From a virus (Duplodnaviria > Heunggongvirae > Uroviricota > Caudoviricetes), in IMG/VR virus record IMGVR_UViG_2778261153_000008: a stretch of 25,598 bases of DNA; one strand, 5' to 3'. Of the stretch, positions 1-13,202 are shown in pieces (positions within the stretch are counted from its first letter, which is position 1; the number at the start of each line of letters is the position of its first letter). The notes below the pieces were generated by a model. It was not told where the DNA came from. It did not search any database and was given only the letters and a program-made list of their open reading frames with translations. The translations under genes and the position numbers were made by a program.

Positions 1-1053
1 TTACGGGGTAATGCCAACCGCTGCCGCCACTTTGTCGCCACTTGGCAGCGTTGCCAGAGGATTGAAACGGAGCGCCGTTTCCAGATGATCCGGTGCCAGA
101 TGTGCGTAACGCATAGTCATTTTTATATCGTGGTGTCCGAGAATTTTTTGTAAGGCCAGAATGTTTCCACCCGACATCATGAAGTGCGCCGCAAACGTAT
201 GGCGCAGAACGTGTGTGAGTTGACCGCGAGGGAGCACGATAGACGTTTTTTCCATCACGGATAAAAATTGAAAATAGCAGTCTGTGAAGAAATTGAACCC
301 ATCAAGCGCCATGATCTCTTCGTAAAGCTCTTTACTGATAGGGATGCTTCTGTTTTTCTTCCCCTTCGTTCTGACAAAGGTAATTCGGTATTTGGTCACC
401 TGTGAGCGAGTAAGATTTACGGCTTCACGCCAGCGTGCGCCTGTGCTTAAGCATATCTTAACTACCAGTGCCAGAATTGGGTCCTGACGTTTGCAATCAG
501 CCAGCAATTCAACAATCTGCTCATGGGTAAGCCATGCCATCTCTTTTTCTGCGATGGTGAATTTTCGCATGTTCTCCAGTGGGTTCGGATACGACCATTC
601 GCCCAGACGGGATAGTTCGCTAAAAACACTACTTAGATAGCTTTGCTCCAGGTTAATGGTGACCGGGCTTGCTCCTTTCTTCCATTTCTCGCTGAAGTAG
701 ATCTCGCCTGTCAGGCGTTTATCTCGATAGTGGGCAAACATTTTAGAGGTGAGATCGGTTGCAAGAGGATTGCCCAGAGCGTCAACCATCAACAGCAATT
801 TGTCATAGACATGCTGCCCAGCTGTCAGAGATTTACCATGTAGTTTGAACCATAGTTCAACCACGTCTTTCAGTGTTCGACGATCCACTGATTCACCCAG
901 CCAGGGCTTTGCTTCGGTTTCTTCCATCGTGTGACGCTCAAAAGCCAGAGCTTCGCCTTTGGTGGCGAATTGTTTACGCACACGACGTCCACTACGTCCG
1001 GCGGGGTAACATTCGCAAAGCCATTTTCCTGTGGTGAGTTTTCGTACTGCCAT
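1..1053 (-). CDS. int: Phage integrase, tyrosine recombinase (P2/186 family)
   Basis: 350-aa ORF; C-terminal tyrosine-recombinase signature (LRHTFAAHF ... GHHDIKMTMRYAHL); sits at prophage end beside the immunity region; stop codon at window positions 1-3 so the gene appears complete. Confidence 0.9.
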   Translation of the reverse strand: MAVRKLTTGKWLCECYPAGRSGRRVRKQFATKGEALAFERHTMEETEAKPWLGESVDRRTLKDVVELWFKLHGKSLTAGQHVYDKLLLMVDALGNPLATDLTSKMFAHYRDKRLTGEIYFSEKWKKGASPVTINLEQSYLSSVFSELSRLGEWSYPNPLENMRKFTIAEKEMAWLTHEQIVELLADCKRQDPILALVVKICLSTGARWREAVNLTRSQVTKYRITFVRTKGKKNRSIPISKELYEEIMALDGFNFFTDCYFQFLSVMEKTSIVLPRGQLTHVLRHTFAAHFMMSGGNILALQKILGHHDIKMTMRYAHLAPDHLETALRFNPLATLPSGDKVAAAVGITP

Positions 1054-1136: not shown

Positions 1137-2813
1137 CTAAGCAACATGCAGTTCATCGTTGGCGGAAGTTGCTGCTTTGCGCTCTTGCTCAATCGCCAGT
1201 GACTCTCTATATTCTTTCGCTTCCGCAAACATTGTCCATTGTGCGTTGATGTTCATATCTTCAATAACAGACTTAATTTCTTTAATATTTACGTTGAAAA
1301 ACTCTTTTCGTGAGTTAATTTTATTGACCTGTTTTTCGTTGAAGACTTTATGCAGATGATTTTCTAATGATGGTGCATCATCACTATAAATCATCGCATG
1401 AACATCGAACGAAAAAGGAACACTAGCATCACCGAGTTCACGAACACGATCAAGTGGTTCAAGGCGGCGTGTCATTCCAATTTTATATACATCTTCGCCA
1501 AATGAGCCAATATTACTAATTATATAAACGTGGCCTGATCTAGTTTGTTGAGCCATAGAAATAGCTCGTTGGTTTTTAGCTTCAGCTTCTTCATATTTTA
1601 ACTGTAGTTCAGCTATTTTTTGCTCTAAAGCTAAGCGTTGTTCTTCATTTGCAAGCATAAGCTCTTTTGTTGCTTTATTTATAGCTTGCTGAATAGCTTT
1701 CTCTTCTTTTTCAGCTTCTTTTATCGCTTTTTCATACTCCCTACGAGCTCTTTCCTCTTCACGAAGTTGTTCTTTAATCCTTCTTTGCTCTTCTTTTTCT
1801 TCGAGCATAATTTCATTAACTGCAACTCCCCATTTTAGCTCGTTGAGTCGAGCTTGAAGATAGATGTCACTTATTTTTGCGGACCTAAAGGCAGAACCAT
1901 TGTAATTTACAAGTTGAAACGCATCTTTTATCTCTTGGGAAAGTTTTCCAAAATTGTTGTGTTTGACTTTTGATAAAATACTGTCAACTCTTCCATTGAA
2001 GGCATCTAAAACAAAGTTGATAGCAGTATTACGCCTGTTTTGTTCGACATAATCACACGAAGCAGCTTTATTAGTTTTTATTAATGATTTTGTTAACTCC
2101 CTGGCTTTTTGTAATTCCTTACCTGCATCTGTAAACTCATAATTTTCTGCCAATTCATCGAGAACGCTACGGTTAGGGATGATCCATTCATCACCATAAC
2201 CTTCAATTTTATTTTTCATTGATTTGGCAACTGCTTCATATTTTTCTGCAAACTCTTTAGCTTCATATGCTGAACCAGCAATCTCTTTTGCTCTTTCTTC
2301 TGCATCGGAAATAATTTTCACTGCATTGTCATTAGCATTTGAGATCAGCTCATTTGCTTTACTATTGGCATTATCAAGACGTTCTTTAGCTTTCAGGCGT
2401 GCATCGCGAGCGTCTTTAGTAATTGCTATAGCTTCGCTATTAGCGTTGCTTATTTTTATCTGAGCTTGATAATTTGCTTCGTTTACTGTCTTAGCAGCCT
2501 TTATTTGGGCTTCTTCTATTTTTTGCCTGGCTATTGAGTCTGCATTTTTTATCTTATTCTCTGCTTCCATCACTGCGCTGTGCAATTCTACGTATTGCCA
2601 TAATGGCGCAGCTCGTCCTTCAAGCTCTGATAGATCTCGTACAGTCTGTGCTAATTCTTCTTGATTTTCTTTCAGTTGGTTGGAAAGGGCTATGTTGTTA
2701 GCTGTCAAGGTATTTATAGCCGCTTTATGTTTTTTGCTTTGCTTAAATAATATTACAGCTAGAATGGGGGCGAGAAATGCTAATAAGAATATAACGATGG
2801 AAAATGAATTCAT
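1137..2813 (-). CDS. Membrane-anchored coiled-coil protein with C-terminal T5orf172/MUG113 (GIY-YIG-like) nuclease domain; DUF4041-like architecture; cargo gene
   Basis: 558 aa. N-terminal hydrophobic helix (FSIVIFLLAFLAPILAVILF), long K/E/A-rich low-complexity middle region predicted coiled coil, C-terminal block GHVYIISNIGSFGEDVYKIGMTRRLEPLDRVRELGDASVPFSF...EFF matching the recalled T5orf172 consensus. Strongly AT-rich versus phage backbone. Start 20 nt downstream of cI stop, SD AAGGA; co-oriented with cI and int. Confidence 0.75.
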   Translation of the reverse strand: MNSFSIVIFLLAFLAPILAVILFKQSKKHKAAINTLTANNIALSNQLKENQEELAQTVRDLSELEGRAAPLWQYVELHSAVMEAENKIKNADSIARQKIEEAQIKAAKTVNEANYQAQIKISNANSEAIAITKDARDARLKAKERLDNANSKANELISNANDNAVKIISDAEERAKEIAGSAYEAKEFAEKYEAVAKSMKNKIEGYGDEWIIPNRSVLDELAENYEFTDAGKELQKARELTKSLIKTNKAASCDYVEQNRRNTAINFVLDAFNGRVDSILSKVKHNNFGKLSQEIKDAFQLVNYNGSAFRSAKISDIYLQARLNELKWGVAVNEIMLEEKEEQRRIKEQLREEERARREYEKAIKEAEKEEKAIQQAINKATKELMLANEEQRLALEQKIAELQLKYEEAEAKNQRAISMAQQTRSGHVYIISNIGSFGEDVYKIGMTRRLEPLDRVRELGDASVPFSFDVHAMIYSDDAPSLENHLHKVFNEKQVNKINSRKEFFNVNIKEIKSVIEDMNINAQWTMFAEAKEYRESLAIEQERKAATSANDELHVA

Positions 2814-2833: not shown

Positions 2834-3430
2834 TTAATTTGAAACTATTGTACTTCTTATACAAGCAACTACTTCAATATCAGAAAATGCACATTCAAAG
2901 CTATTCTCTGTACTTGTAATTTTAATCATACCTTTTGGAAGCTTTGTGATTTTTCGAATGGAATAGGTTCCGTCGATGTTGATTAACCAGTGCCCATCAA
3001 GTACTTCAGAAAATTTTTGATCACAAATGTATGTGACGAGCCCATCCTGAATAACAATTGGTGATGAAAGATTTGCAGGAAGAAATGATGAATCGAAGAC
3101 ATATGAACCATCTTCAATCATTTTGCCTGCGGTAAGGCGAAACTTGGCAAGCTCTTCTGTAGCTGCTGTCAGCGAGCTTTGCTTAAGGCCTTGCCCGGTG
3201 GTTAACCATTTCAGTGAGGTTCCTGTTTCAAGAGCACATTGGATTATCCAGTCTGCAGGAAACGTATCCCGCAAATACCTGTTCGCCAGAGTGCTTTTTG
3301 ATACTTCCAAGTGATCAGCTAAAGCCTGTCGTGTCGTAAAGCCATAAGCTTCGACTAATCGCTCAATCGCAGCCTTACCACCTTTATTGGGATTTATTTT
3401 GATCTCATTTGGGTACTTTGATGTTGACAT
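2834..3430 (-). CDS. cI: Immunity repressor, phage 186 CI-like
   Basis: 198-aa ORF divergent from apl/cII; N-terminal HTH-like region (AYGFTTRQALADHLEVSKSTLANRYLR); size and position match 186 CI (about 190 aa). Start codon overlaps the -35 of the rightward promoter. Confidence 0.8.
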   Translation of the reverse strand: MSTSKYPNEIKINPNKGGKAAIERLVEAYGFTTRQALADHLEVSKSTLANRYLRDTFPADWIIQCALETGTSLKWLTTGQGLKQSSLTAATEELAKFRLTAGKMIEDGSYVFDSSFLPANLSSPIVIQDGLVTYICDQKFSEVLDGHWLINIDGTYSIRKITKLPKGMIKITSTENSFECAFSDIEVVACIRSTIVSN

Positions 3431-3525: not shown

Positions 3526-3747
3526 ATGACCCCTAACATTTCAATAACTCTGAATACGCCACATGTCACAATTGAGCGTTATAGCGAACTTACTGGTCTT
3601 TCTATCGACACCATCAACGATATGCTGGCTGATGGTCGCATCCCTCGCCATCGCCTTCGGAAAGACAAGAAAAGAGAAAAGGTAATGATCAACCTTGCTG
3701 CTCTTACCGTTGATGCACTTACTGATTGCAATGTTGTATTCAACTAG
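3526..3747 (+). CDS. apl: Excisionase/transcriptional regulator, Apl/Cox-like
   Basis: 73-aa product from ATG 3526 preceded by SD AGGAG (3511-3515); first rightward gene opposite cI; HTH-like segment [21 protein letters not shown]. The ORF-track start at 3409 is an upstream extension with no SD and overlaps cI. Confidence 0.7.
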
Positions 3748-3779
3748 TTCCATTTTGGGATACATCAGGGGTGTCGACT

Positions 3780-4289
3780 ATGTTTGATTACCAAGTTTCC
3801 AAACATCCACATTTTGACGAAGCCTGTCGTGCATTCGCACTGCGCCACAACCTGGTGCAACTGGCAGAACGTGCAGGCATGAATGTACAGATTCTGCGGA
3901 ACAAGCTGAACCCAGCTCAACCTCATTTATTAACCGCACCAGAAATCTGGTTGCTTACCGATCTGACTGAAGATTCAACGCTGGTAGATGGCTTTCTGGC
4001 ACAGATTCACTGCCTGCCATGTGTACCGATTAATGAGGTGGCAAAAGAGAAACTGCCGCATTATGTCATGAGTGCAACTGCAGAGATCGGGCGTGTTGCT
4101 GCAGGTGCGGTATCCGGCGATGTAAAAACCAGTGCAGGTCGTCGTGATGCTATCAGCAGCATTAACTCTGTAACACGGCTGATGGCGCTGGCCGCTGTTT
4201 CATTGCAGGCCCGTTTACAGGCTAATCCTGCGATGGCGAGTGCAGTTGATACCGTTACTGGCCTCGGTGCTTCATTCGGTTTGCTGTGA
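3780..4289 (+). CDS. cII: CII-like transcriptional activator (phage 186 CII family)
   Basis: 169-aa product from ATG 3780 ([19 protein letters not shown]...); size and position after apl match 186 CII; recalled sequence similarity. Confidence 0.7.
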
Positions 4290-5103: not shown

Positions 5104-5330
5104 TGGCTGATGCAATGGATCTCGTACAGCAGCGCGTTGAAGAAGAACGCCAGCGCCATATCCGTGCTGCCCGTGCCAAAACACCGGGCGTGTCACGCGT
5201 ACTTTGCATTGAATGTGAAGCGCCAATTCCGCCAGCACGACGCCGCGCCATTCCGGGAGTGCAGCTTTGCATTACCTGTCAGGAAATCGCAGAACTGAAA
5301 GGCAAACATTACAACGGAGGTGCTGTATGA
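5103..5330 (+). CDS. TraR/DksA-family C4 zinc-finger protein
   Basis: 75 aa with CxxC-(17)-CxxC pattern (CIECEAP...CITCQE), typical of small phage TraR/DksA-like zinc fingers; translationally coupled to flanking genes. Confidence 0.7.
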   Translation: MADAMDLVQQRVEEERQRHIRAARAKTPGVSRVLCIECEAPIPPARRRAIPGVQLCITCQEIAELKGKHYNGGAV

Positions 5331-6175
5331 GCACCATCTTGAAATGGGCGGGAAATAAAACGGCCATTATGGCAGAACTGAAAAAATACCTTCCTGCTGG
5401 CCCGCGACTGGTTGAACCTTTCGCGGGTTCCTGTGCAGTGATGATGGAGACGGATTACCCCAGCTATCTTGTTGCGGATATTAATCCTGATTTAATCAAC
5501 CTCTATAAAAAGGTTGCCGCTGATTGTGAATCGTTTATATCTCGCGCCAGAGTTTTATTTGAGAACGCAAACAGGGAGATGGCTTATTACAACATAAGGC
5601 AGGAGTTTAATTACTCAACTGAAATTACTGATTTCATGAAAGCAGTATATTTCCTGTATCTCAATCGTCACGGTTACCGTGGTTTATGTCGCTATAACAA
5701 GAGCGGGCATTTCAACATTCCCTACGGTAATTATAAAAATCCGTATTTCCCTGAAAAAGAAATTCGTGCATTTGCAGAAAAAGCCCAGCGGGCAACATTT
5801 ATCTGCGCCAGCTTCGATGAAACGCTGGCAATGTTGCACGCGGGGGATGTTGTGTATTGCGATCCGCCTTATGACGGTACGTTTTCCGGTTATCACACTG
5901 ACGGCTTCACTGAAGATGACCAGTATCACCTGGCATCCGTTCTTGAACATCGGTCATCAGAAGGACATCCGGTCATTGTTTCTAACAGTGACACATCCCT
6001 GATCCGCTCGCTGTATCGCAATTTCACTCACCACTACATCAAGGCAAAACGCAGCATTGGCGTGTCAGCTGGCGAGAGTAAATCTGCAACAGAAATCATT
6101 GCCACCAAATCAGCTGGGTGGTTTGGTGTCGATTTTGCCAGCGGCTCTGACCGTACCGTTGAGGTACGCGCATGA
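5327..6175 (+). CDS. dam: DNA adenine methyltransferase (Dam-like, N6-adenine MTase)
   Basis: ATG 5327 (overlaps preceding stop as ATGA); N-terminal AdoMet motif (KWAGNK ... EPFAGSCAV) and catalytic DPPY motif ([11 protein letters not shown]). Confidence 0.85.
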
Positions 6176-7182
6176 ATGCTATCGATCCGCGTTGCTTTGC
6201 CTCAGGCACCATTAACGTCATCACTACTTCTGGTGGCAAAGATAGTCTCGCTCAATGGCTAAGAGCCATTGAAAACGATGTTCCGCATATTTCTGTATTT
6301 GCCGATACGGGTCATGAACATCCACAGACAATAGAATATCTGGATTATCTGGAATCAAAGCTGGGCAAGATTATTCGCGTCAAAGCGGATTTCACACGCC
6401 AGATAGAAGGGAAACGTAAATTCATTGCGGAAAAGTGGACCATTTCTCTCGTTGAGGAATGTGGTATGTCGACAGATGAGGCTGAGGAACGTATTTACCG
6501 GGCACTGGAAATCCTTAAACCAACCGGCGTTCCGTTTCTTGATTTGTGCATGTGGAAAGGTCGCTTCCCTTCAACAAAAGCTCGTTTCTGCACTTTTGAA
6601 CTGAAACATGAACCAATACGTACACAGGTAATCGATCCAGCTCTGGATGAATACGATGAGGTAATCAGTTGGCAAGGAGTCCGGGGGCAGGAATCACCGG
6701 AACGTGCATTGTTGCCTGAGTGGGAGGACGATGCAGACAATACTCTGGGGCTGCATGTTTATCGTCCGATCCTTAATTGGCTGCATGAGGATGTGTTTGC
6801 TATTGCCAAACGTCATGGCATTAAGCCTAACCCCCTTTATATGCAGGGATGCAGTCGTGTCGGTTGTATGCCATGCATTCATGCTCGCAAGTCAGAACTT
6901 GGAGAGATTTTCCAACGCTGGCCAGAAGAAATCCGCCGAGTGGCTGAGTGGGAAAGACTGGTTGCGGAATGTTCAAGACGTGGCAATTCAACGTTCTTTC
7001 CATCCACGCATGATCCGCGCCGTGCTGAAAAACGGATCGAAGTCATAACTGTTGATGCTTATGGCATTGAAACTTATCGGGACTGGGCCTTAACGACTCG
7101 GGGCGGTATGCAGTTTGACCTGCTGGCAGGCATGAATGATAAAGCGGTGTGCAGCAGTGTATATGCAGGAGTCTGTGAGTGA
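6172..7182 (+). CDS. PP-loop ATP pyrophosphatase, phosphoadenosine-phosphosulfate (PAPS) reductase-like family protein
   Basis: 336 aa; PP-loop motif SGGKDS near N-terminus; C-terminal cysteine cluster (CSRVGCMPC); start overlaps dam stop (ATGA), stop overlaps gene A start. Confidence 0.65.
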
Positions 7183-9620
7183 CAGAGATCAGCACAGGCC
7201 GTCTTGCCGATCCATTTGTCAGTGTAACTTCCGGTAGCATTGAGAATTCTGCCGGGGGTTATTCGTGGAATTTACCTAAGAAAGCCATTAACCCTTATCT
7301 GGACCCGGCGGAAGTTGCGCCGGTTTCTGCGCTTTCAAACCTGATCACTCTGTACGCTACCGATAACGAGCAGGAACAACTGCGCCGCGAGGCACTGAGT
7401 GATCAGGTCTGGGAGCGTTATTTCTTTAATGAATCCCGTGATCCTGTCCAGCGCGAAATGGAGCAGGATAAGCTCATTAGCCGGGCAAAGTTGGCGCATG
7501 AGCAGCAGCGTTTTAACCCGGACATGGTCATTCTGGCAGACGTCAGCGCCCAGCCCTCCCATATCAGCAAGCCGCTGATGCAACGTATTGAATACTTCAG
7601 CAGCCTGGGCAGGCCAAAGGCTTATTCCCGCTATTTACGTGAGACGATTAAGCCATGTCTGGAACGACTGGAGCATGTACGCGACAGCCAGCTATCTGCA
7701 TCTTTTCGTTTTATGGCAAGCCATGTAGGGCTGGACGACCTGCTGATTCTGCCTGAAATGAGTCAGGATCAGGTGAAACGCCTGTCTACCCTTGTCGCTG
7801 CGCATATGAGCATGTGCCTTGATGCAGCTTGTGGTGATTTGTATGCCACCGATGACGTTAAGCCAGAAGAAATCCGCAAGACATGGGAAAAGGTGGCAGC
7901 GGAAACCCTGCGTCTGGATGTCATCCCGCCTGCGTTTGAGCAACTCCGCCGGAAAAGAAACCGCCGTAAACCCGTGCCCTATGAACTCATTCCGGGTTCG
8001 CTGGCGCGTATGTTGTGCGCCGACTGGTGGTACCGGAAATTATGGAAGATGCGTTGCGAATGGCGGGAAGAGCAGTTGCGTGCTGTCTGCCTGGTCAGCA
8101 AAAAAGCATCTCCCTATGTCAGCTATGAAGCCGTGATGCATAAACGTGAGCAGCGCCGTAAGTCGCTGGAGTTTTTTCGTTCTCATGAACTGGTGAACGA
8201 AGACGGCGACACGCTGGACATGGAGGATGTGGTAAACGCCAGCAGCAGCAACCCTGCGCATCGCCGCAATGAGATGATGGCCTGTGTTAAAGGCCTGGAG
8301 CTTATCGCGGAAATGCGTGGTGACTGCGCCGTTTTCTACACCATTACCTGTCCGTCACGTTTCCATTCCACGCTCAATAACGGCAGACCAAACCCAACCT
8401 GGACAAATGCGACGGTAAGACAAAGCAGCGATTATCTGGTCGGCATGTTTGCTGCATTTCGTAAGGCGATGCACAAAGCCGGGTTGCGCTGGTATGGCGT
8501 GCGGGTGGCTGAGCCGCATCATGACGGTACGGTTCACTGGCACCTGTTGTGTTTCATGCGCAAAAAAGACCGCCGTGCCATTACTGCATTGTTGCGTAAG
8601 TTTGCCATCCGTGAAGACCGCGAGGAACTGGGTAATAACACTGGTCCACGCTTTAAATCTGAGCTGATAAACCCGCGCAAAGGAACACCGACAAGCTACA
8701 TCGCGAAATACATTAGTAAGAACATTGACGGGCGTGGTCTGGCTGGCGAGATCAGCAAGGAAACGGGTAAATCCCTGCGTGATAACGCTGAATACGTTAA
8801 TGCCTGGGCGTCTCTGCATCGTGTTCAGCAATTCCGCTTCTTTGGTATTCCGGGGCGTCAGGCTTACCGTGAACTGCGATTGCTGGCTGGTCAGGCGGCA
8901 AGGCAACAGGGCGACAAAAAAGCAGGTGCGCCGGTACTGGATAACCCGCGCCTTGATGCCATCCTGGCTGCTGCTGATGCTGGTTGTTTTGCCACTTACA
9001 TCATGAAGCAGGGTGGTGTACTGGTTCCCCGCAAATATCACCTCATCAGAACTGCTTATGAAATTAACGAAGAGCCGACCGCCTATGGCGATCACGGCAT
9101 TCGTATTTATGGCATCTGGTCACCCATTGCAGAGGGCAAGATCTGCACTCATGCAGTGAAGTGGAAAATGGTTCGTAAAGCCGTTGACGTTCAGGAGGCG
9201 GTAGCCGACCAGGGCGCTTGCGCCCCTTGGACTCGTGGCAATAACTGTCCCCTTGCTGAAAATTTGAACCAACAGGAGAAAGATAAATCAGCTGATGGGG
9301 ACCCCAGAACGGACATTACCCGCATGGATGACAAGGTGTTGCACGATTACCTGCACAGTATGAACAAAAAGGAGCGCCGGGAACTGGCTGCAAGGTTACG
9401 TCTGGTGAAACCGAAACGGCGTAGAGACTACAAACAGCGAATTACAGACCATCAACGACAGCATCTCGTCTATGAACTGAAATCCAGAGGATTTGATGGC
9501 AGCGAGAAAGAGGTCGATTTACTCCTTCGCGGCGGCAGTATTCCGTCAGGAGCAGGCCTGCGTATCTTCTATCGGAACCAGCGTTTGCAGGAAGATGATA
9601 AGTGGCGGAACCTGTATTAA
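7179..9620 (+). CDS. A: Replication initiation protein (P2 gpA-like rolling-circle endonuclease)
   Basis: 813 aa, GTG start with SD AGGAG (7167-7171); HUH-type motif ([12 protein letters not shown]) and downstream tyrosine motif ([10 protein letters not shown]); large early gene in the position of P2 gene A. Confidence 0.85.
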
Positions 9621-9713
9621 TTACGCTGGTTAACAATTCGTGCTCTTAATAATACCAGGTATATCAGGCTGATAAGCGTAAAAAAAACGTTTTACATCAG
9701 TAAGATTATTATA

Positions 9714-9733
9714 TACTGTAAATATAAACAGTG
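9714..9733. promoter_or_regulatory. LexA operator (SOS box) at promoter of downstream operon
   Basis: TACTGTAAATATAAACAGTG matches the CTGT-N8-ACAG LexA consensus (TACTGTATATATATACAGTA) at 17 of 20 positions; lies 40 bp upstream of ATG 9774 in an AT-rich intergenic region; a weaker half-site (ACAG at 9743-9746) follows. Confidence 0.75.
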
Positions 9734-9773
9734 GTTATGTATACAGTATTGCTTTGGTGTCATAGGAGGAAAG

Positions 9774-9962
9774 ATGCAGGACTATTTTTTGGAGTCTTTG
9801 AAGCTCCAGCGCATTGATTTTTTTCTTAAGCTTGTAGCGGCTAGTGAGTGTAGTGATGAAGAGAAGGGGCTGGCTTTGCAGTGGGTTTCTGAACTGACTG
9901 ATGAACTCATGGCAAAAATCAGAAGCCACGAATACAACCGCTCAATGGATGTCATCAGCTGA
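9774..9962 (+). CDS. Small SOS-operon protein, hypothetical (possibly N-terminal part of a Tum-like antirepressor)
   Basis: 62-aa ORF with strong SD (AGGAGG) 5 nt upstream; first gene after the LexA box; overlaps the upstream open frame of the DinI-like gene. Confidence 0.5.
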   Translation: MQDYFLESLKLQRIDFFLKLVAASECSDEEKGLALQWVSELTDELMAKIRSHEYNRSMDVIS

Positions 9963-9972
9963 GGTGACTTTT

Positions 9973-10206
9973 ATGCGCATTGAAATAATGATCGATAAAG
10001 AGCAGAAGATTAGCCAGTCTACCCTGGACGCCCTTGAATCCGAGCTTTACCGCAATCTGCGCCCCCTGTATCCCAAAACGGTAATCCGTATCCGTAAAGG
10101 TAGCTCTAACGGTGTGGAACTGACCGGACTGCAACTGGACGAAGAAAGAAAACAAGTGATGAAAATTATGCAGAAGGTGTGGGAAGACGACAGCTGGCTG
10201 CATTGA
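9973..10206 (+). CDS. DinI-like protein (Tum C-terminal-like, SOS-inducible)
   Basis: 77-aa product MRIEIMIDKEQ...KVWEDDSWLH resembles E. coli DinI in length and in N-terminal MRIE and C-terminal W-x-DD-W motifs; SD GAGGTG 6 nt upstream; downstream of LexA box. Confidence 0.7.
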   Translation: MRIEIMIDKEQKISQSTLDALESELYRNLRPLYPKTVIRIRKGSSNGVELTGLQLDEERKQVMKIMQKVWEDDSWLH

Positions 10207-10260
10207 TTTTGTCAATAGACGCTTGTTTTTACTAATCAAAAAGGGTTACATATGAGTGAG

Positions 10261-10293
10261 AGGCGATGTCAATCAGATATCGCCTTGTTTTTT
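10261..10293 (+). terminator. Intrinsic terminator/attenuator-like hairpin
   Basis: A-GGCGAT (10261-10267) pairs with ATCGCC-T (10279-10285), 11-nt loop, followed by TTGTTTTTTG; lies after the DinI-like gene and 27 nt before the lipoprotein start. Confidence 0.45.
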
Positions 10294-10319
10294 GTCAAGA
10301 AAAGAATAATAGGCTAAAA

Positions 10320-10997
10320 ATGAAAATTAATAATGTAGCGTTACCAATATCTCTTGCTGTAATCCTAACTGGTTGCGTGCCACATGCTTCTAACCGAAAT
10401 ATCACTGCTATTGAAGTGGTGAAGCCTGCTATTGGGCAAAGTGCTACCGCCTACATGGGCGATCCCATTATCACATCTGCTACTGGATTTAAAACGGACG
10501 TACTAGAACTTGGTGCGGCTAATGGTGCATTGTCTTCTATCGCTGCTGGTACATATTGCAGTGAGGGGAATGGAATTTACCGCAATTATCATAACCCTCA
10601 AGCTGTTGCGTTAAAAAATCTCTATGGGCAAATCGGTAACTATGTTGATTATGTTAGTTACGATGCTGCAAAAAATGAGATATCACCGCCAAATGGTACT
10701 TCTTATACTGCATCAGAAATTTCTATCAAACGTGTTCCTGATGGGCTGTGTCGAGTTAGTAACTCATTGGTTAAGACTATCGAATACAATGGAAATGCAG
10801 GCGGTGTAATGAAGTTCACCTATCGTGAATTTGCAAACGATATGGCTCGTGCAGCATTTACAACAGATTTTTCTGTAGATTCTAAGGGAAGTGACGTTAT
10901 CGCTTACAAAGGTGCCAAGTTCAAAGTGAACAAGGCTGATAACTCGTCTATTTCTTATACAATTATTTCTGGCTTTGACAAGGCTGTCACGTTCTAG
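10320..10997 (+). CDS. Lipoprotein, function unknown (cargo/moron)
   Basis: Product begins MKINNVALPISLAVILTGC: basic N-terminus, hydrophobic core, lipobox LTGC. Remainder Gly/Ser/Asn/Tyr-rich beta-type sequence. AT-rich relative to backbone. The ORF-track start at 10266 would add 18 non-signal residues and overlaps the hairpin. Confidence 0.7.
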   Translation: MKINNVALPISLAVILTGCVPHASNRNITAIEVVKPAIGQSATAYMGDPIITSATGFKTDVLELGAANGALSSIAAGTYCSEGNGIYRNYHNPQAVALKNLYGQIGNYVDYVSYDAAKNEISPPNGTSYTASEISIKRVPDGLCRVSNSLVKTIEYNGNAGGVMKFTYREFANDMARAAFTTDFSVDSKGSDVIAYKGAKFKVNKADNSSISYTIISGFDKAVTF

Positions 10998-11483: not shown

Positions 11484-13202
11484 ATGCATCCTGTTTTAAA
11501 CAGATATATTCAAGATTTAGCGAGTACACTTGATATAGCAGAAGAGCAAGATAAGTTATTTGAATATTTTTGCAATTTTGTTGTTACATCCAAAAATTAT
11601 CTTGGCCGATTTAATCCTGTCGACATTACGACTCAAGAAGATGATGCATCAATTGATGGCTTGGCGGTTCTAATAGATAGTGAGATCATACTTACCCAAG
11701 AGGACGCTATTGCTGCTTTCGAAAGTCACAAATCGTCATTGCCTGTAGAACTTTTGGTTATTCAAGCTAAATCAGGAGAAACCTTCCGGAAAGATAAAAT
11801 AGCTAATTTTAATTTGGGGTTGCAGGATTTATTCAGTTTGGACCCGAAACTACCTAATGGAAAGTACAATAAAGAAATTATAAAAATATTAAGTGTTATC
11901 ATCGATAATTTGAGAAAAGTCAAGAATAAACTTCCTGATATAAAGGTTTATTTTTGCACAAGCGGTGTCTATTCAAAAGAAAGAGAAATAGAAGCTTCTT
12001 TTAAGATTATTGAAGAAACTTGTAAAGGGGCAGATCTGTTTGGTGAAGTTGAGGTTAGCCCATTAGGTCGTAGCGAACTAATGAAATTGTGGCGCTCAAT
12101 AACCGAAAAAAATGAGGCTACTTTAGAGTTCATAAATTTCATGGGCATCAATGAAATGCCTGGAATTCCTCAAGCATATATTACAACAATAAAAGCTAAG
12201 GAGTTTATTGAAAAAGTTGCGATGGATGAAGATCGCAAAATTCGAGAGGAGGTATTTGATGAAAATGTACGAGCATTTTTAGGTGAAGACAATCCTGTTA
12301 ATAAGGATATTACTAAAACCTTGCAATCTGAAAAATCGAATCAATTCGCTGTGCTAAACAATGGCGTGACCATCATTGCTCCTGAGGTAACCCTCACCCC
12401 AAGTAAAAAAACTATACACATAGCTAATTATCAGATCATTAACGGTTGCCAAACTACCAATACACTATTCAATAACTTTGGAATATTAACGGATGCGACT
12501 GAACTCGTTGTTAAGTTTATACAATCTAGCGAGGTTGATGTCGCAATTGACATTGTAACTGCTACCAATAATCAATCCAAAGTGGAGAGTTCTAGCTTTT
12601 ATGCGTTGAGAGAAAAGTCTAGGATGATACATAAATTTTTTGAAATACAACGGGATGTTGAAGGCAGGGAACACCTTTATTTTGAAAGAAGAGAAGGTGA
12701 GTATCGTGGTAAATCTATCAAAACTACAAAAATATATGACATTGTTGAATTGGCAAGGTGTTTCTTATCTGTATTCAAACAGAGGCCACACAATGCCGCT
12801 ATGTATGTGAAAAAAGTATTAAATGAAAGTAAGGATATATGTTATTTAGATACTGATAACGAATATGCATATTACACAGCAGCTTATATTTGTTATAAAT
12901 ACAGCACGTTGATTAATGGTCGTAAAGCTAATGCTAAGAAATATAATAAGCTACGTTGGCATATTGCTATGCTTTATCCTTGGGTTGTGAGCAAAAGTAT
13001 GGATGTTCCTGCGCCCAATTCAGGAAAGATAACTCCTTTTTGTAATAATATCATGAAAACATTGACAACTGATGAATACGTGGAGAATTTCAAAGAATGT
13101 CAAAAAATAATTGATAAACTTCCATTCCCTACAGATGACCAGATCAAACGAGGAAAATACACCAGCGATCTGAGAACGATGGCAGCAGAACATTTTAAAT
13201 AA
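11484..13202 (+). CDS. Hypothetical 572-aa protein; candidate single-gene anti-phage defence/abortive-infection protein (family unverified, possibly AIPR-like)
   Basis: Long uninterrupted ORF with SD GGAG 6 nt before ATG; very AT-rich compared with flanking packaging genes; own AT-rich upstream region; followed by strong hairpin terminator. No Walker A motif; conserved-looking block ANYQIINGCQTTNT; located between cos and portal gene. Confidence 0.6.
   Translation: MHPVLNRYIQDLASTLDIAEEQDKLFEYFCNFVVTSKNYLGRFNPVDITTQEDDASIDGLAVLIDSEIILTQEDAIAAFESHKSSLPVELLVIQAKSGETFRKDKIANFNLGLQDLFSLDPKLPNGKYNKEIIKILSVIIDNLRKVKNKLPDIKVYFCTSGVYSKEREIEASFKIIEETCKGADLFGEVEVSPLGRSELMKLWRSITEKNEATLEFINFMGINEMPGIPQAYITTIKAKEFIEKVAMDEDRKIREEVFDENVRAFLGEDNPVNKDITKTLQSEKSNQFAVLNNGVTIIAPEVTLTPSKKTIHIANYQIINGCQTTNTLFNNFGILTDATELVVKFIQSSEVDVAIDIVTATNNQSKVESSSFYALREKSRMIHKFFEIQRDVEGREHLYFERREGEYRGKSIKTTKIYDIVELARCFLSVFKQRPHNAAMYVKKVLNESKDICYLDTDNEYAYYTAAYICYKYSTLINGRKANAKKYNKLRWHIAMLYPWVVSKSMDVPAPNSGKITPFCNNIMKTLTTDEYVENFKECQKIIDKLPFPTDDQIKRGKYTSDLRTMAAEHFK

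What the first reader, a model, noticed from the sequence alone, without database searches (positions are those of the whole stretch)
9714..10206. LexA-controlled operon encoding a small protein plus DinI-like protein: a possibly split Tum-type antirepressor
A near-consensus LexA box (TACTGTAAATATAAACAGTG) lies 40 bp upstream of a two-gene unit: a 62-aa ORF (9774-9962) and a 77-aa DinI-like ORF (9973-10206). The 186-type CI lacks a LexA-like autocleavage domain, and in 186 prophage induction works through the SOS-induced antirepressor Tum, whose C-terminal part I recall as DinI-like. Here the two ORFs are in different frames and overlap by about 60 nt in their open frames (the DinI frame is open from 9901), so a single +1/-1 frame change in 9901-9962 would yield one protein of about 145 aa, near the size of Tum. 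Either this phage has a naturally two-part antirepressor, a frameshifted tum (induction-defective prophage), or programmed frameshifting.
Basis: partly seen in the sequence, partly recalled or inferred. Interest (0 to 1): 0.55.

Follow-up and report, generated by a model that had tools for sequence, protein, structure and literature searches.

The report
Split tumA–tumB SOS induction operon
This is the DNA-damage switch of a Fels-2/186-type prophage: a LexA-repressed pair of genes, a small antirepressor (TumA) and a DinI-like protein (TumB). The split arrangement is already described, it is very common, and it was tested genetically in E. coli HS on a protein identical to this one.

Summary
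A LexA box (9714-9733) lies 40 nt upstream of a 62-aa ORF (9774-9962) and a 77-aa DinI-family ORF (9973-10206). They sit just after replication gene A in a Fels-2-like P2/186-type prophage, whose CI is 186-type with no S24 autocleavage domain.

- ORF2 is 41% identical to 186 Tum residues 71-145. It starts exactly where 186 has an internal start for a truncated Tum.
- The ORF1 family matches the Tum N-terminus by profile comparison (96.5%, E 8.5e-10, same register).

A frameshifted gene or programmed frameshifting is rejected.
- The spacer between the two genes is 10, 11 or 12 nt in relatives, so all three relative frames occur.
- Both ORFs keep their lengths and their own ribosome-binding sites.
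- dN/dS is 0.07-0.11 for both.

None of this is new. PSP3's GenBank record names the pair tumA/tumB, and Lemire 2011 (citing Bunny 2002) describes the split in Fels-2 and PSP3. A 2025 paper deleted exactly this ORF in E. coli HS, where the protein is 100% identical, and lost mitomycin C induction. The segment occurs in 1125 of 5426 complete E. coli genomes.

Interest is low.

The parts
9691..9696 (+). Putative -35 hexamer TTTACA of the tum promoter, the equivalent of 186 p95
   Evidence: Read from the sequence. Conserved in all Fels-2-like relatives. It lies 17 nt upstream of TACTGT, the same layout as the annotated p95 of 186. Inferred only: the consensus scan did not call it.
9714..9733 (+). 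LexA (SOS) box TACTGTAAATATAAACAGTG; its first six bases, TACTGT, are the putative -10
   Evidence: Unique in the window and conserved in relatives. In 186 the annotated LexA site likewise begins at the -10 TACTGT.
9729..9748 (+). Second, degenerate LexA-like box CAGTGGTTATGTATACAGTA (GTG-N10-CAG), overlapping box 1 by 5 nt
   Evidence: Conserved in all seven Fels-2-like relatives. MAFFT aligns this box, not box 1, with the single box of 186 and PSP3. Function not tested.
9774..9962 (+). tumA: 62-aa antirepressor, homologous to the N-terminal module of 186 Tum
   Evidence: GGAGG ribosome-binding site at 9765-9769. hhalign to the Tum N-terminal family 96.5%, E 8.5e-10. dN/dS 0.07-0.11. 100% identical to the E. 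coli HS protein whose deletion abolished mitomycin C induction. AF2 predicts a two-helix hairpin, pLDDT 91.5.
9973..10206 (+). tumB: 77-aa DinI-family protein, equivalent to the C-terminal module (truncated product) of 186 Tum
   Evidence: Pfam DinI 6.6e-23. 41% identity to Tum 71-145. Matches PDB 1GHH, E. coli DinI, at E 2.7e-6. Own ribosome-binding site GAGGTGA. dN/dS 0.00-0.09.
10260..10296 (+). Intrinsic terminator closing the two-gene operon, the analogue of 186 t95a
   Evidence: 11-bp stem with 5 G-C pairs followed by a T-run. The hairpin appears in the minimum-free-energy fold, z = -3.3. 186 has t95a at the same position.
2834..3430 (-). 186-type CI immunity repressor, the presumed target of TumA
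   Evidence: Pfam Phage_CI_repr and Phage_CI_C, no S24 peptidase domain. 33% identity to 186 CI, E 4e-35.

Best explanation
This is the SOS induction module of a Fels-2-like (Peduoviridae, 186-type) prophage, in its naturally split tumA-tumB form.

Proposed sequence of events:
1. In a lysogen, host LexA binds the box that overlaps the -10 of the tum promoter and keeps the operon off.
2. DNA damage activates RecA and LexA cleaves itself, so the promoter fires.
3. The bicistronic mRNA yields TumA (62 aa, a helical hairpin) and TumB (77 aa, DinI-like), each from its own ribosome-binding site.
4. TumA binds the non-cleavable 186-type CI repressor and stops it binding its operators. This derepresses the early lytic promoter and induces the prophage.
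5. TumB probably acts on RecA filaments, like DinI, and like the truncated Tum of 186 tunes the SOS/induction response. It is not the antirepressor.

Shown here: the sequence features, the homology of both modules, the conserved two-cistron organisation, and purifying selection on both ORFs.

Shown elsewhere on an identical protein: tumA and cleavable LexA are each required for mitomycin C induction.

Inferred from 186: a direct TumA-CI interaction, LexA occupancy of this box, and the role of TumB.
For: Context: the module lies directly after the gpA replication gene (Pfam Phage_GPA 1.5e-127) in a prophage with integrase, 186-type CI and CII. This is the same place as p95-tum in 186.

LexA box: unique in the window and conserved in relatives.

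Homology:
- TumB matches Tum residues 71-145. It starts at the position of the annotated internal GTG start of 186's 'truncated Tum - modulates SOS induction'.
- The TumA family matches the Tum N-terminal family by hhalign at 96.5%, E 8.5e-10.
- Yersinia phages bridge the two: the same spot is hit by both TumA and the Tum N-terminus.

Prior annotation and literature:
- The PSP3 GenBank record annotates tumA as 'similar to 5' end 186 tum; UV induction of prophage' and tumB as 'similar to dinI and 3' end of 186 tum'.
- Lemire et al. 2011 (PMC3121763) state that Fels-2 and PSP3 have tum split in two. [quoted passage not shown]

Genetics: the Phollow paper (PMC12055606; preprint PMC11195241) deleted tum in the E. 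coli HS prophage.
- Its primers fuse ATG to TGA immediately before GGTGACTTTTATGCGCATTG, so only the 62-aa ORF was removed.
- Mitomycin C-induced lysis and viral foci were lost, as they were in lexA(Ind-).
- Those primer sequences match the window exactly.
- HS TumA is 100% identical to the window's, and the tumB DNA is identical.

Selection and prevalence: dN/dS is 0.07-0.11 at dS about 0.9-1.4 for both ORFs. The segment is present in 1125 of 5426 complete E. coli genomes.
Against: - Nothing was measured on this particular prophage. LexA binding, TumA-CI binding and inducibility are all inferred.
- The window's CI is only 55% identical to the HS CI and 42% to the Fels-2 CI. That the same TumA inactivates this CI is therefore an extrapolation.
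- ORF1 shows no pairwise BLASTP similarity to 186 Tum; the homology rests on profiles and intermediates.
- The generic promoter scan did not call the promoter.
- The role of TumB has not been tested in any split system I could find.
Confidence: 0.93

Rival explanations
1. A frameshifted, inactivated tum gene. On this reading an ancestral single 146-aa tum was broken by an indel, leaving an induction-defective prophage.
For: The two ORFs are in different frames, and the DinI frame is open 25 codons upstream of its ATG. 186 has a single fused gene.
Against: - The same 62-aa plus 77-aa pair is intact in Fels-2, DuoHS, SopEPhi, SEN8, and Klebsiella and Yersinia phages, with 10-, 11- or 12-nt spacers.
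- Each ORF has its own ribosome-binding site.
- dN/dS is 0.07-0.11 for both.
- DuoHS, with an identical TumA, is mitomycin C-inducible in a tumA-dependent way.
- The segment is in about 21% of complete E. coli genomes.
Confidence: 0.02
2. Programmed ribosomal frameshifting in 9901-9962 produces a fused TumA-TumB protein of about 145 aa alongside the separate products.
For: The open frames overlap by 62 nt, and there is an A5 run at 9914-9918.
Against: - The shift needed is +1 (9774 is 0 mod 3 and 9973 is 1 mod 3), which is rare in bacteria.
- GCA-AAA-ATC is not an X-XXY-YYZ slippery site.
- In relatives the tumB frame relative to tumA is +1, +2 or 0. The upstream open stretch shrinks to 14 or 4 codons, so no fused product is conserved.
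- PSP3 has an in-frame stop instead.
Confidence: 0.01
3. The antirepressor is a two-subunit complex: TumA and TumB must act together, reconstituting 186 Tum non-covalently.
For: In 186 the active antirepressor is the full-length fusion (annotation). The two genes are always adjacent and co-transcribed in the Fels-2-like group.
Against: - Several relatives have a LexA-boxed TumA-like gene and no DinI gene at all: ENT90, ESSI-2, YenM_324 and YenM_06.16-2.
- Lemire 2011 relays that in PSP3 the upstream gene alone encodes the antirepressor activity.
- The HS deletion shows TumA is necessary, but it did not test whether TumB is also needed.
Confidence: 0.04

Closest known systems
tumA/tumB of Salmonella phage PSP3 and STM2728/STM2726.1 of Fels-2 (split tum; Bunny et al. 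2002 as cited by Lemire et al. 2011; GenBank NC_005340, NC_010463)
   Same: - Same position after gene A, with a LexA box.
- A small upstream antirepressor ORF followed by a 77-aa DinI-like ORF.
- The window is 96.9% identical in DNA to Fels-2 over 9600-10300. TumA is 60/62 identical and TumB 77/77.
   Different: Essentially nothing relative to Fels-2. Relative to PSP3, TumA is highly diverged (the PSP3 protein sits in the 186-type group of alignment A2). The PSP3 genes are in one frame separated by a stop, whereas here there is a 10-nt spacer and a +1 frame offset.
tum of the E. coli HS prophage DuoHS (Phollow, Nat Microbiol 2025, PMC12055606)
   Same: TumA is 100% identical in protein and tumB 100% identical in DNA, with the same promoter and LexA box. 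Experimentally, tumA and cleavable LexA are required for mitomycin C induction.
   Different: The CI repressor of DuoHS is only 55% identical to the window's CI. The cargo genes flanking the module also differ.
Tum of coliphage 186 (p95 SOS operon; Lamont 1989, Brumby 1996 and Shearwin 1998 recalled from my own knowledge; annotation in NC_001317)
   Same: - A LexA-repressed promoter with the box over the -10.
- An N-terminal antirepressor module plus a C-terminal DinI-like module.
- A separately translated DinI-like product; in 186 this comes from an internal GTG.
- A partial terminator after the gene, and a 186-type CI as target.
   Different: - In 186 the two modules are one 146-aa polypeptide; here they are two cistrons.
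- The N-modules share only about 20% identity.
- The downstream gene is unrelated to orf97.
- The window family has an extra degenerate LexA-like box.
E. coli DinI (PF06183; PDB 1GHH, 7YWA)
   Same: TumB matches the full DinI domain and the DinI chain (E 2.7e-6). Like dinI, it is LexA-controlled.
   Different: It scores below the NCBIfam equivalog cut-off for chromosomal DinI (42.7 against 111 bits), so it is a phage paralogue. RecA binding has not been tested.
Gifsy/Fels-1 LexA-controlled antirepressors GfoA/GftA/FsoA (Lemire 2011)
   Same: Same logic: a LexA-repressed operon encoding a small antirepressor and a DinI homologue, acting on a non-cleavable repressor.
   Different: The gene order is reversed (dinI first), and the antirepressor and repressor families are different, from lambdoid phages. 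No homology to them was tested here.

Membership tests
186-type Tum SOS induction module (split tumA-tumB form) | LexA operator overlapping the promoter immediately upstream | tested here: met
   TACTGTAAATATAAACAGTG at 9714-9733, unique in the window. It is conserved at this position in all relatives and has the same layout as the annotated p95/LexA site of 186. This is sequence evidence only.
186-type Tum SOS induction module (split tumA-tumB form) | Located downstream of replication gene A in a P2/186-like prophage whose CI lacks an autocleavage domain | tested here: met
   gpA at 7179-9620 (Pfam Phage_GPA). CI at 2834-3430 carries Phage_CI_repr and Phage_CI_C with no S24 domain, and is 33% identical to 186 CI.
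186-type Tum SOS induction module (split tumA-tumB form) | Upstream product homologous to the N-terminal (antirepressor) part of Tum | tested here: met
   hhalign of A1 against A2: probability 96.5%, E 8.5e-10, residues 2-42 to 2-42. Bridging hits occur in Yersinia phages. Pairwise BLASTP is negative.
186-type Tum SOS induction module (split tumA-tumB form) | Downstream product homologous to the DinI-like C-terminal part of Tum | tested here: met
   41% identity to Tum 71-145, E 3e-24. Pfam DinI 6.6e-23.
186-type Tum SOS induction module (split tumA-tumB form) | Two independent cistrons, not a broken gene: both maintained under selection, each with its own translation signals | tested here: met
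   ORF lengths are constant at 62 and 77 aa. The spacer is 10, 11 or 12 nt with Shine-Dalgarno-like sequences. dN/dS is 0.07-0.11.
186-type Tum SOS induction module (split tumA-tumB form) | Required for SOS (UV/mitomycin C) induction of the prophage | not testable with these tools
   Not tested on this prophage. It was shown for the identical TumA of E. coli HS DuoHS (PMC12055606 and PMC11195241; identity).
186-type Tum SOS induction module (split tumA-tumB form) | Binds CI and blocks its DNA binding | not testable with these tools
   Known for 186 Tum: Shearwin 1998 as cited, and the 186 annotation 'inhibits CI DNA binding'. No data exist for TumA with this CI.
DinI family (PF06183) | Full-length match above the Pfam gathering threshold | tested here: met
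   81.3 bits against a cut-off of 24.2, covering profile positions 1-63 of 63. Matches PDB 1GHH at E 2.7e-6.
DinI family (PF06183) | Equivalog of chromosomal E. coli DinI (NCBIfam NF007893) | tested here: not met
   42.7 bits against a cut-off of 111. It is a phage DinI-like paralogue, not dinI itself.
Programmed-frameshift or frameshift-pseudogene tum | Conserved slippery site and a conserved frame relationship giving a fused product | tested here: not met
   The relative frame is +1, +2 or 0 in close relatives. The open overlap shrinks from 25 to 14 to 4 codons. There is no X-XXY-YYZ motif in 9901-9962.

The most novel reading that the evidence does not exclude
TumA may be a broad-specificity antirepressor. 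Proteins 97-100% identical to this one are paired with at least six CI immunity types that are only 36-59% identical to one another. Two of those backgrounds (DuoHS, and Fels-2 by inference) are SOS-inducible. The CI N-terminal DNA-binding domains stay 65-77% identical to the window's, with an invariant RD.FPA[DE]W[IV]IQC.LETG.SL.WL..G.G stretch, while the C-terminal domains drop to 25-42%. If TumA docks on that conserved N-domain surface, one TumA could induce heteroimmune co-resident Fels-2-like prophages in trans, as shown for the Gifsy phages. The conserved tandem arrangement of one perfect and one degenerate LexA box could then set a shared induction threshold.
Probability: 0.35. Interest if true: 0.4.

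Novelty: already known. Interest (0 to 1): 0.12.

Why it matters
As a discovery it matters little. The split tum operon is described for PSP3 and Fels-2 and was validated genetically in E. coli HS, and this copy is essentially the same sequence.

There is a practical annotation gap. The antirepressor gene that decides whether these very common prophages are SOS-inducible has no Pfam or NCBIfam model. PHROGs lists it as 'unknown function', and RefSeq calls it 'hypothetical protein' in more than a thousand E. coli genomes. Naming it TumA would let prophage-inducibility predictions recognise it.

The apparent independence of TumA from CI immunity type is a modest, testable lead on cross-induction among P2-like prophages.

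Tried and rejected
- Pairwise BLASTP of ORF1 against 186 Tum found nothing. The homology appeared only with family profiles and intermediate sequences.
- Pfam, NCBIfam and PHROGs give ORF1 no function.
- The 243-aa ORF at 10266-10997 has the same length as 186 orf97, so I tested for homology. There is none (E 4.5). Its real start is probably 10320 (225 aa), as annotated in E. coli HS.
- The generic promoter scan did not detect the tum promoter, so the promoter assignment rests on analogy with 186 p95.
- Bunny et al. 2002 (PMC151935) is not in the held library. I cite it only through Lemire 2011.
- A whole-word literature search for 'TumA/TumB' returned only unrelated papers. A search for where Tum binds on CI found nothing useful.
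- I did not run the large protein-database searches, a metagenome scan or a fold search. The verdict did not depend on them, and a two-helix hairpin gives uninformative fold matches.
- The Escherichia phage 500465-1 record shows indels in both genes. I treated these as probable sequencing errors and excluded the record.

Full report
**1. What is in the sequence**

The window is a P2/186-like prophage, with these genes:
- integrase (1-1053, minus strand);
- a PD-Lambda-1-type defence gene (1137-2813, minus strand);
- a 186-type CI (2834-3430, minus strand; Pfam Phage_CI_repr and Phage_CI_C, no S24 peptidase domain);
- CII (3726-4289);
- a Dam methylase;
- a PAPS-reductase-like protein;
- replication protein gpA (7179-9620);
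- the portal and terminase genes, from 13240.

The finding lies in the gap after gpA.
- ORF1 (9774-9962, 62 aa) follows a GGAGG site.
- ORF2 (9973-10206, 77 aa) follows GAGGTGA and is a full-length DinI-family protein (Pfam 6.6e-23; PDB 1GHH E 2.7e-6).
- A strong hairpin with a T-run at 10260-10296 closes the unit.

The statistics on the box are mixed.
- The CTGT-N8-ACAG core occurs once in the window. That alone is not significant, with 0.35 expected.
- A match within 3 mismatches of the 20-mer consensus never occurred in 100 shuffles.
- A perfect core is found at the same place in every relative examined.

The one caveat concerns the promoter (TTTACA at 9691-9696, 17 nt, TACTGT at 9714-9719). 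It is inferred by analogy with the annotated p95 of 186, because the generic scan did not call it.

**2. Relation to 186 Tum**

Phage 186 has, after gene A, the following in order:
- promoter p95, with a LexA site starting at the -10 TACTGT;
- tum (146 aa), with annotated internal starts, including a GTG that yields a 'truncated Tum - modulates SOS induction';
- terminator t95a;
- orf97.

ORF2 aligns to Tum residues 71-145 (41% identity, E 3e-24). It begins exactly at that internal start.

ORF1 gives no BLASTP alignment to Tum, but the two are linked in three ways.
- tblastn with ORF1 and with the Tum N-terminus hits the same spot in Yersinia enterocolitica phages.
- An alignment of eight ORF1-like proteins (A1) matches an alignment of five 186-type N-terminal sequences (A2). 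The probability is 96.5%, E 8.5e-10, residues 2-42 to 2-42, in the same register.
- The shared pattern is ER[IV].L[IF]..[LM]......C...[DE][KR].[IL]AL.[WL][IV].E[LI].

AlphaFold2 on the single sequence predicts a two-helix hairpin (helices 2-23 and 28-61, pLDDT 91.5). The conserved Cys26 sits in the turn.

ORF1 is thus the N-module of Tum and ORF2 the C-module.

**3. Split gene, broken gene or frameshift?**

The same pair occurs across the Fels-2-like group, and in these relatives the lengths are 62 and 77 aa. It was found in:
- Fels-2;
- the E. coli HS prophage DuoHS;
- SopEPhi and SEN8;
- many Klebsiella phages;
- a Yersinia pestis phage.

PSP3 carries the same arrangement with a 60-aa TumA and a 77-aa TumB.

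The spacer between the tumA stop and the tumB start varies, so the relative frame takes all three values:

| Phage | Spacer | tumB frame relative to tumA |
|---|---|---|
| window, Fels-2, DuoHS | 10 nt | +1 |
| SopEPhi, SEN8, Klebsiella ST437phi4.1 | 11 nt | +2 |
| Yersinia MLG42 | 12 nt | 0 |
| PSP3 | 3 nt (one codon after the tumA stop) | 0 |

The upstream open stretch of the tumB frame shrinks from 25 to 14 to 4 codons, so no fused product is conserved.

Both ORFs are under strong purifying selection in their own frames. dN/dS is 0.07-0.11 at dS of about 0.9-1.4.

The shift needed for a fusion would be +1, and there is no canonical slippery site in 9901-9962.

The frameshifted-pseudogene and programmed-frameshift readings are therefore rejected. 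The genes are two independent cistrons.

Several relatives carry a LexA-boxed TumA-like gene with no DinI gene at all: ENT90, ESSI-2, YenM_324 and YenM_06.16-2. This argues that the antirepressor function lies in the TumA module and that DinI is an optional add-on.

**4. What is already known**

- The PSP3 GenBank record names the genes. tumA is annotated 'similar to 5' end 186 tum; UV induction of prophage'. tumB is annotated 'similar to dinI and 3' end of 186 tum'.
- The Fels-2 record points to PSP3 TumB.
- Lemire et al. [quoted passage not shown] They cite Bunny et al. 2002. [quoted passage not shown]
- The Phollow study (PMC12055606; preprint PMC11195241) deleted 'tum' in the E. coli HS prophage DuoHS. 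Neither the deletion strain nor a lexA(Ind-) strain lysed or formed viral foci after mitomycin C.

The Phollow primers show what was deleted. NHR24 and NHR28 join ...ATAGGAGGAAAGATG directly to TGAGGTGACTTTTATGCGCATTG. Only the 62-aa ORF was removed, and the DinI gene was kept.

These primer sequences and both confirmation primers match the window exactly. I located DuoHS in NC_009800. Its TumA is 100% identical to ORF1, with two synonymous differences, and its tumB DNA is identical.

The 700-bp segment is present in 1125 of 5426 complete E. coli genomes, where PGAP annotates it as 'hypothetical protein' plus 'DinI-like family protein'.

**5. Mechanism**

Shown here or in the cited work:
- LexA-box control;
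- two translated products;
- the requirement for tumA and for cleavable LexA in induction.

Inferred from 186 (Shearwin 1998, as cited, and the 186 annotation):
- TumA binds CI reversibly and prevents operator binding, which derepresses the lytic promoter;
- TumB acts like DinI, or like the truncated Tum of 186, to modulate RecA and the SOS response.

A two-subunit TumA-TumB antirepressor is not excluded, but the TumA-only phages and the PSP3 information make it unlikely.

**6. Side observations**

(a) TumA and CI type are decoupled.
- Near-identical TumA proteins are paired with at least six CI types that are only 36-59% identical to one another.
- The CI N-domain stays 65-77% identical to the window's, with an invariant motif. 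The C-domain falls to 25-42%.
- This suggests that TumA recognises the conserved N-domain and could work across immunity types. That is untested.

(b) A second, degenerate LexA-like box (9729-9748, GTG-N10-CAG) overlaps the first. It is conserved in the Fels-2-like group, and it is the one MAFFT aligns with the single box of 186 and PSP3.

(c) The cargo after the operon comprises a lipoprotein-like ORF, unrelated to 186 orf97, and an AbiU/AIPR gene.

**7. Verdict**

The 'naturally split Tum' interpretation is supported and the frameshift alternatives are rejected. The feature is already known and very common, so interest is low. The useful residue is an annotation gap for TumA and a modest lead on cross-immunity antirepression.

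Noticed in passing
window 9774-9962 versus CI at 2834-3430 (-); L014:18701-19270; L015-L019: TumA proteins 97-100% identical to this one are paired with at least six CI types only 36-59% identical to one another. The CI N-terminal domains stay 65-77% identical to the window's, with an invariant RD.FPA[DE]W[IV]IQC.LETG.SL.WL..G.G motif, while the C-domains are 25-42% identical. This suggests TumA targets the conserved N-domain and may act across immunity types.
   Followed up: partly
window 9729-9748: A second, degenerate LexA-like box, CAGTGGTTATGTATACAGTA (GTG-N10-CAG), overlaps the perfect box by 5 nt. It is conserved in all seven Fels-2-like relatives and aligns with the single LexA box of 186 and PSP3. 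It could be part of a tandem operator.
   Followed up: partly
L004:1174-1359, L005:1168-1401, L006:1159-1398, L007:1171-1425: Four P2-like phages (Yersinia YenM_06.16-2 and YenM_324, Erwinia ENT90, Cronobacter ESSI-2) have a LexA-boxed TumA-like gene after gene A but no DinI-like gene. In two of them the TumA ORF is not annotated at all.
   Followed up: partly
window 9774-9962: Annotation gap: TumA has no Pfam or NCBIfam model, is PHROG 698 'unknown function', and is called 'hypothetical protein' by PGAP in 1125 complete E. coli genomes, despite genetic evidence of its function.
   Followed up: yes
window 10266-10997 (likely start 10320): A lipoprotein-like ORF (MKINNVALPISLAVILTGC lipobox; PHROG 1353, unknown function; no Pfam hit) follows the tum terminator. 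The mechanical ORF is 243 aa, the same length as 186 orf97, but it is unrelated (E 4.5). The listed start lies inside the terminator hairpin, and E. coli HS annotates the 225-aa form.
   Followed up: partly
window 11484-13202: A 572-aa AIPR / AbiU-type abortive-infection protein (Pfam AIPR 4.6e-40; PADLOC AbiU 9.3e-107) sits in the variable slot between the tum operon and the portal gene. E. coli HS and Fels-2 carry different cargo there.
   Followed up: no
window 1137-2813 (-): A 558-aa DUF4041 plus T5orf172/MUG113 protein matching PADLOC PD-Lambda-1 (4.7e-120) is inserted between the integrase and cI. It is a second defence-gene slot of this prophage.
   Followed up: no
L011:1201-1414 (Escherichia phage 500465-1, CP025900): This record has indels that scramble TumA residues 31-38 and truncate TumB after 4 codons (gaataa versus gaaataa). 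These are probably homopolymer sequencing errors rather than real pseudogenes.
   Followed up: no
window 5267-7182: A Dam-type N6-adenine methylase (5267-6175) and a PAPS-reductase/SspD/DndC-like protein (6172-7182) overlap by 4 nt. The latter's stop in turn overlaps the start of gpA by 4 nt, like 186 orf84, whose translation is noted as needed for A translation.
   Followed up: no
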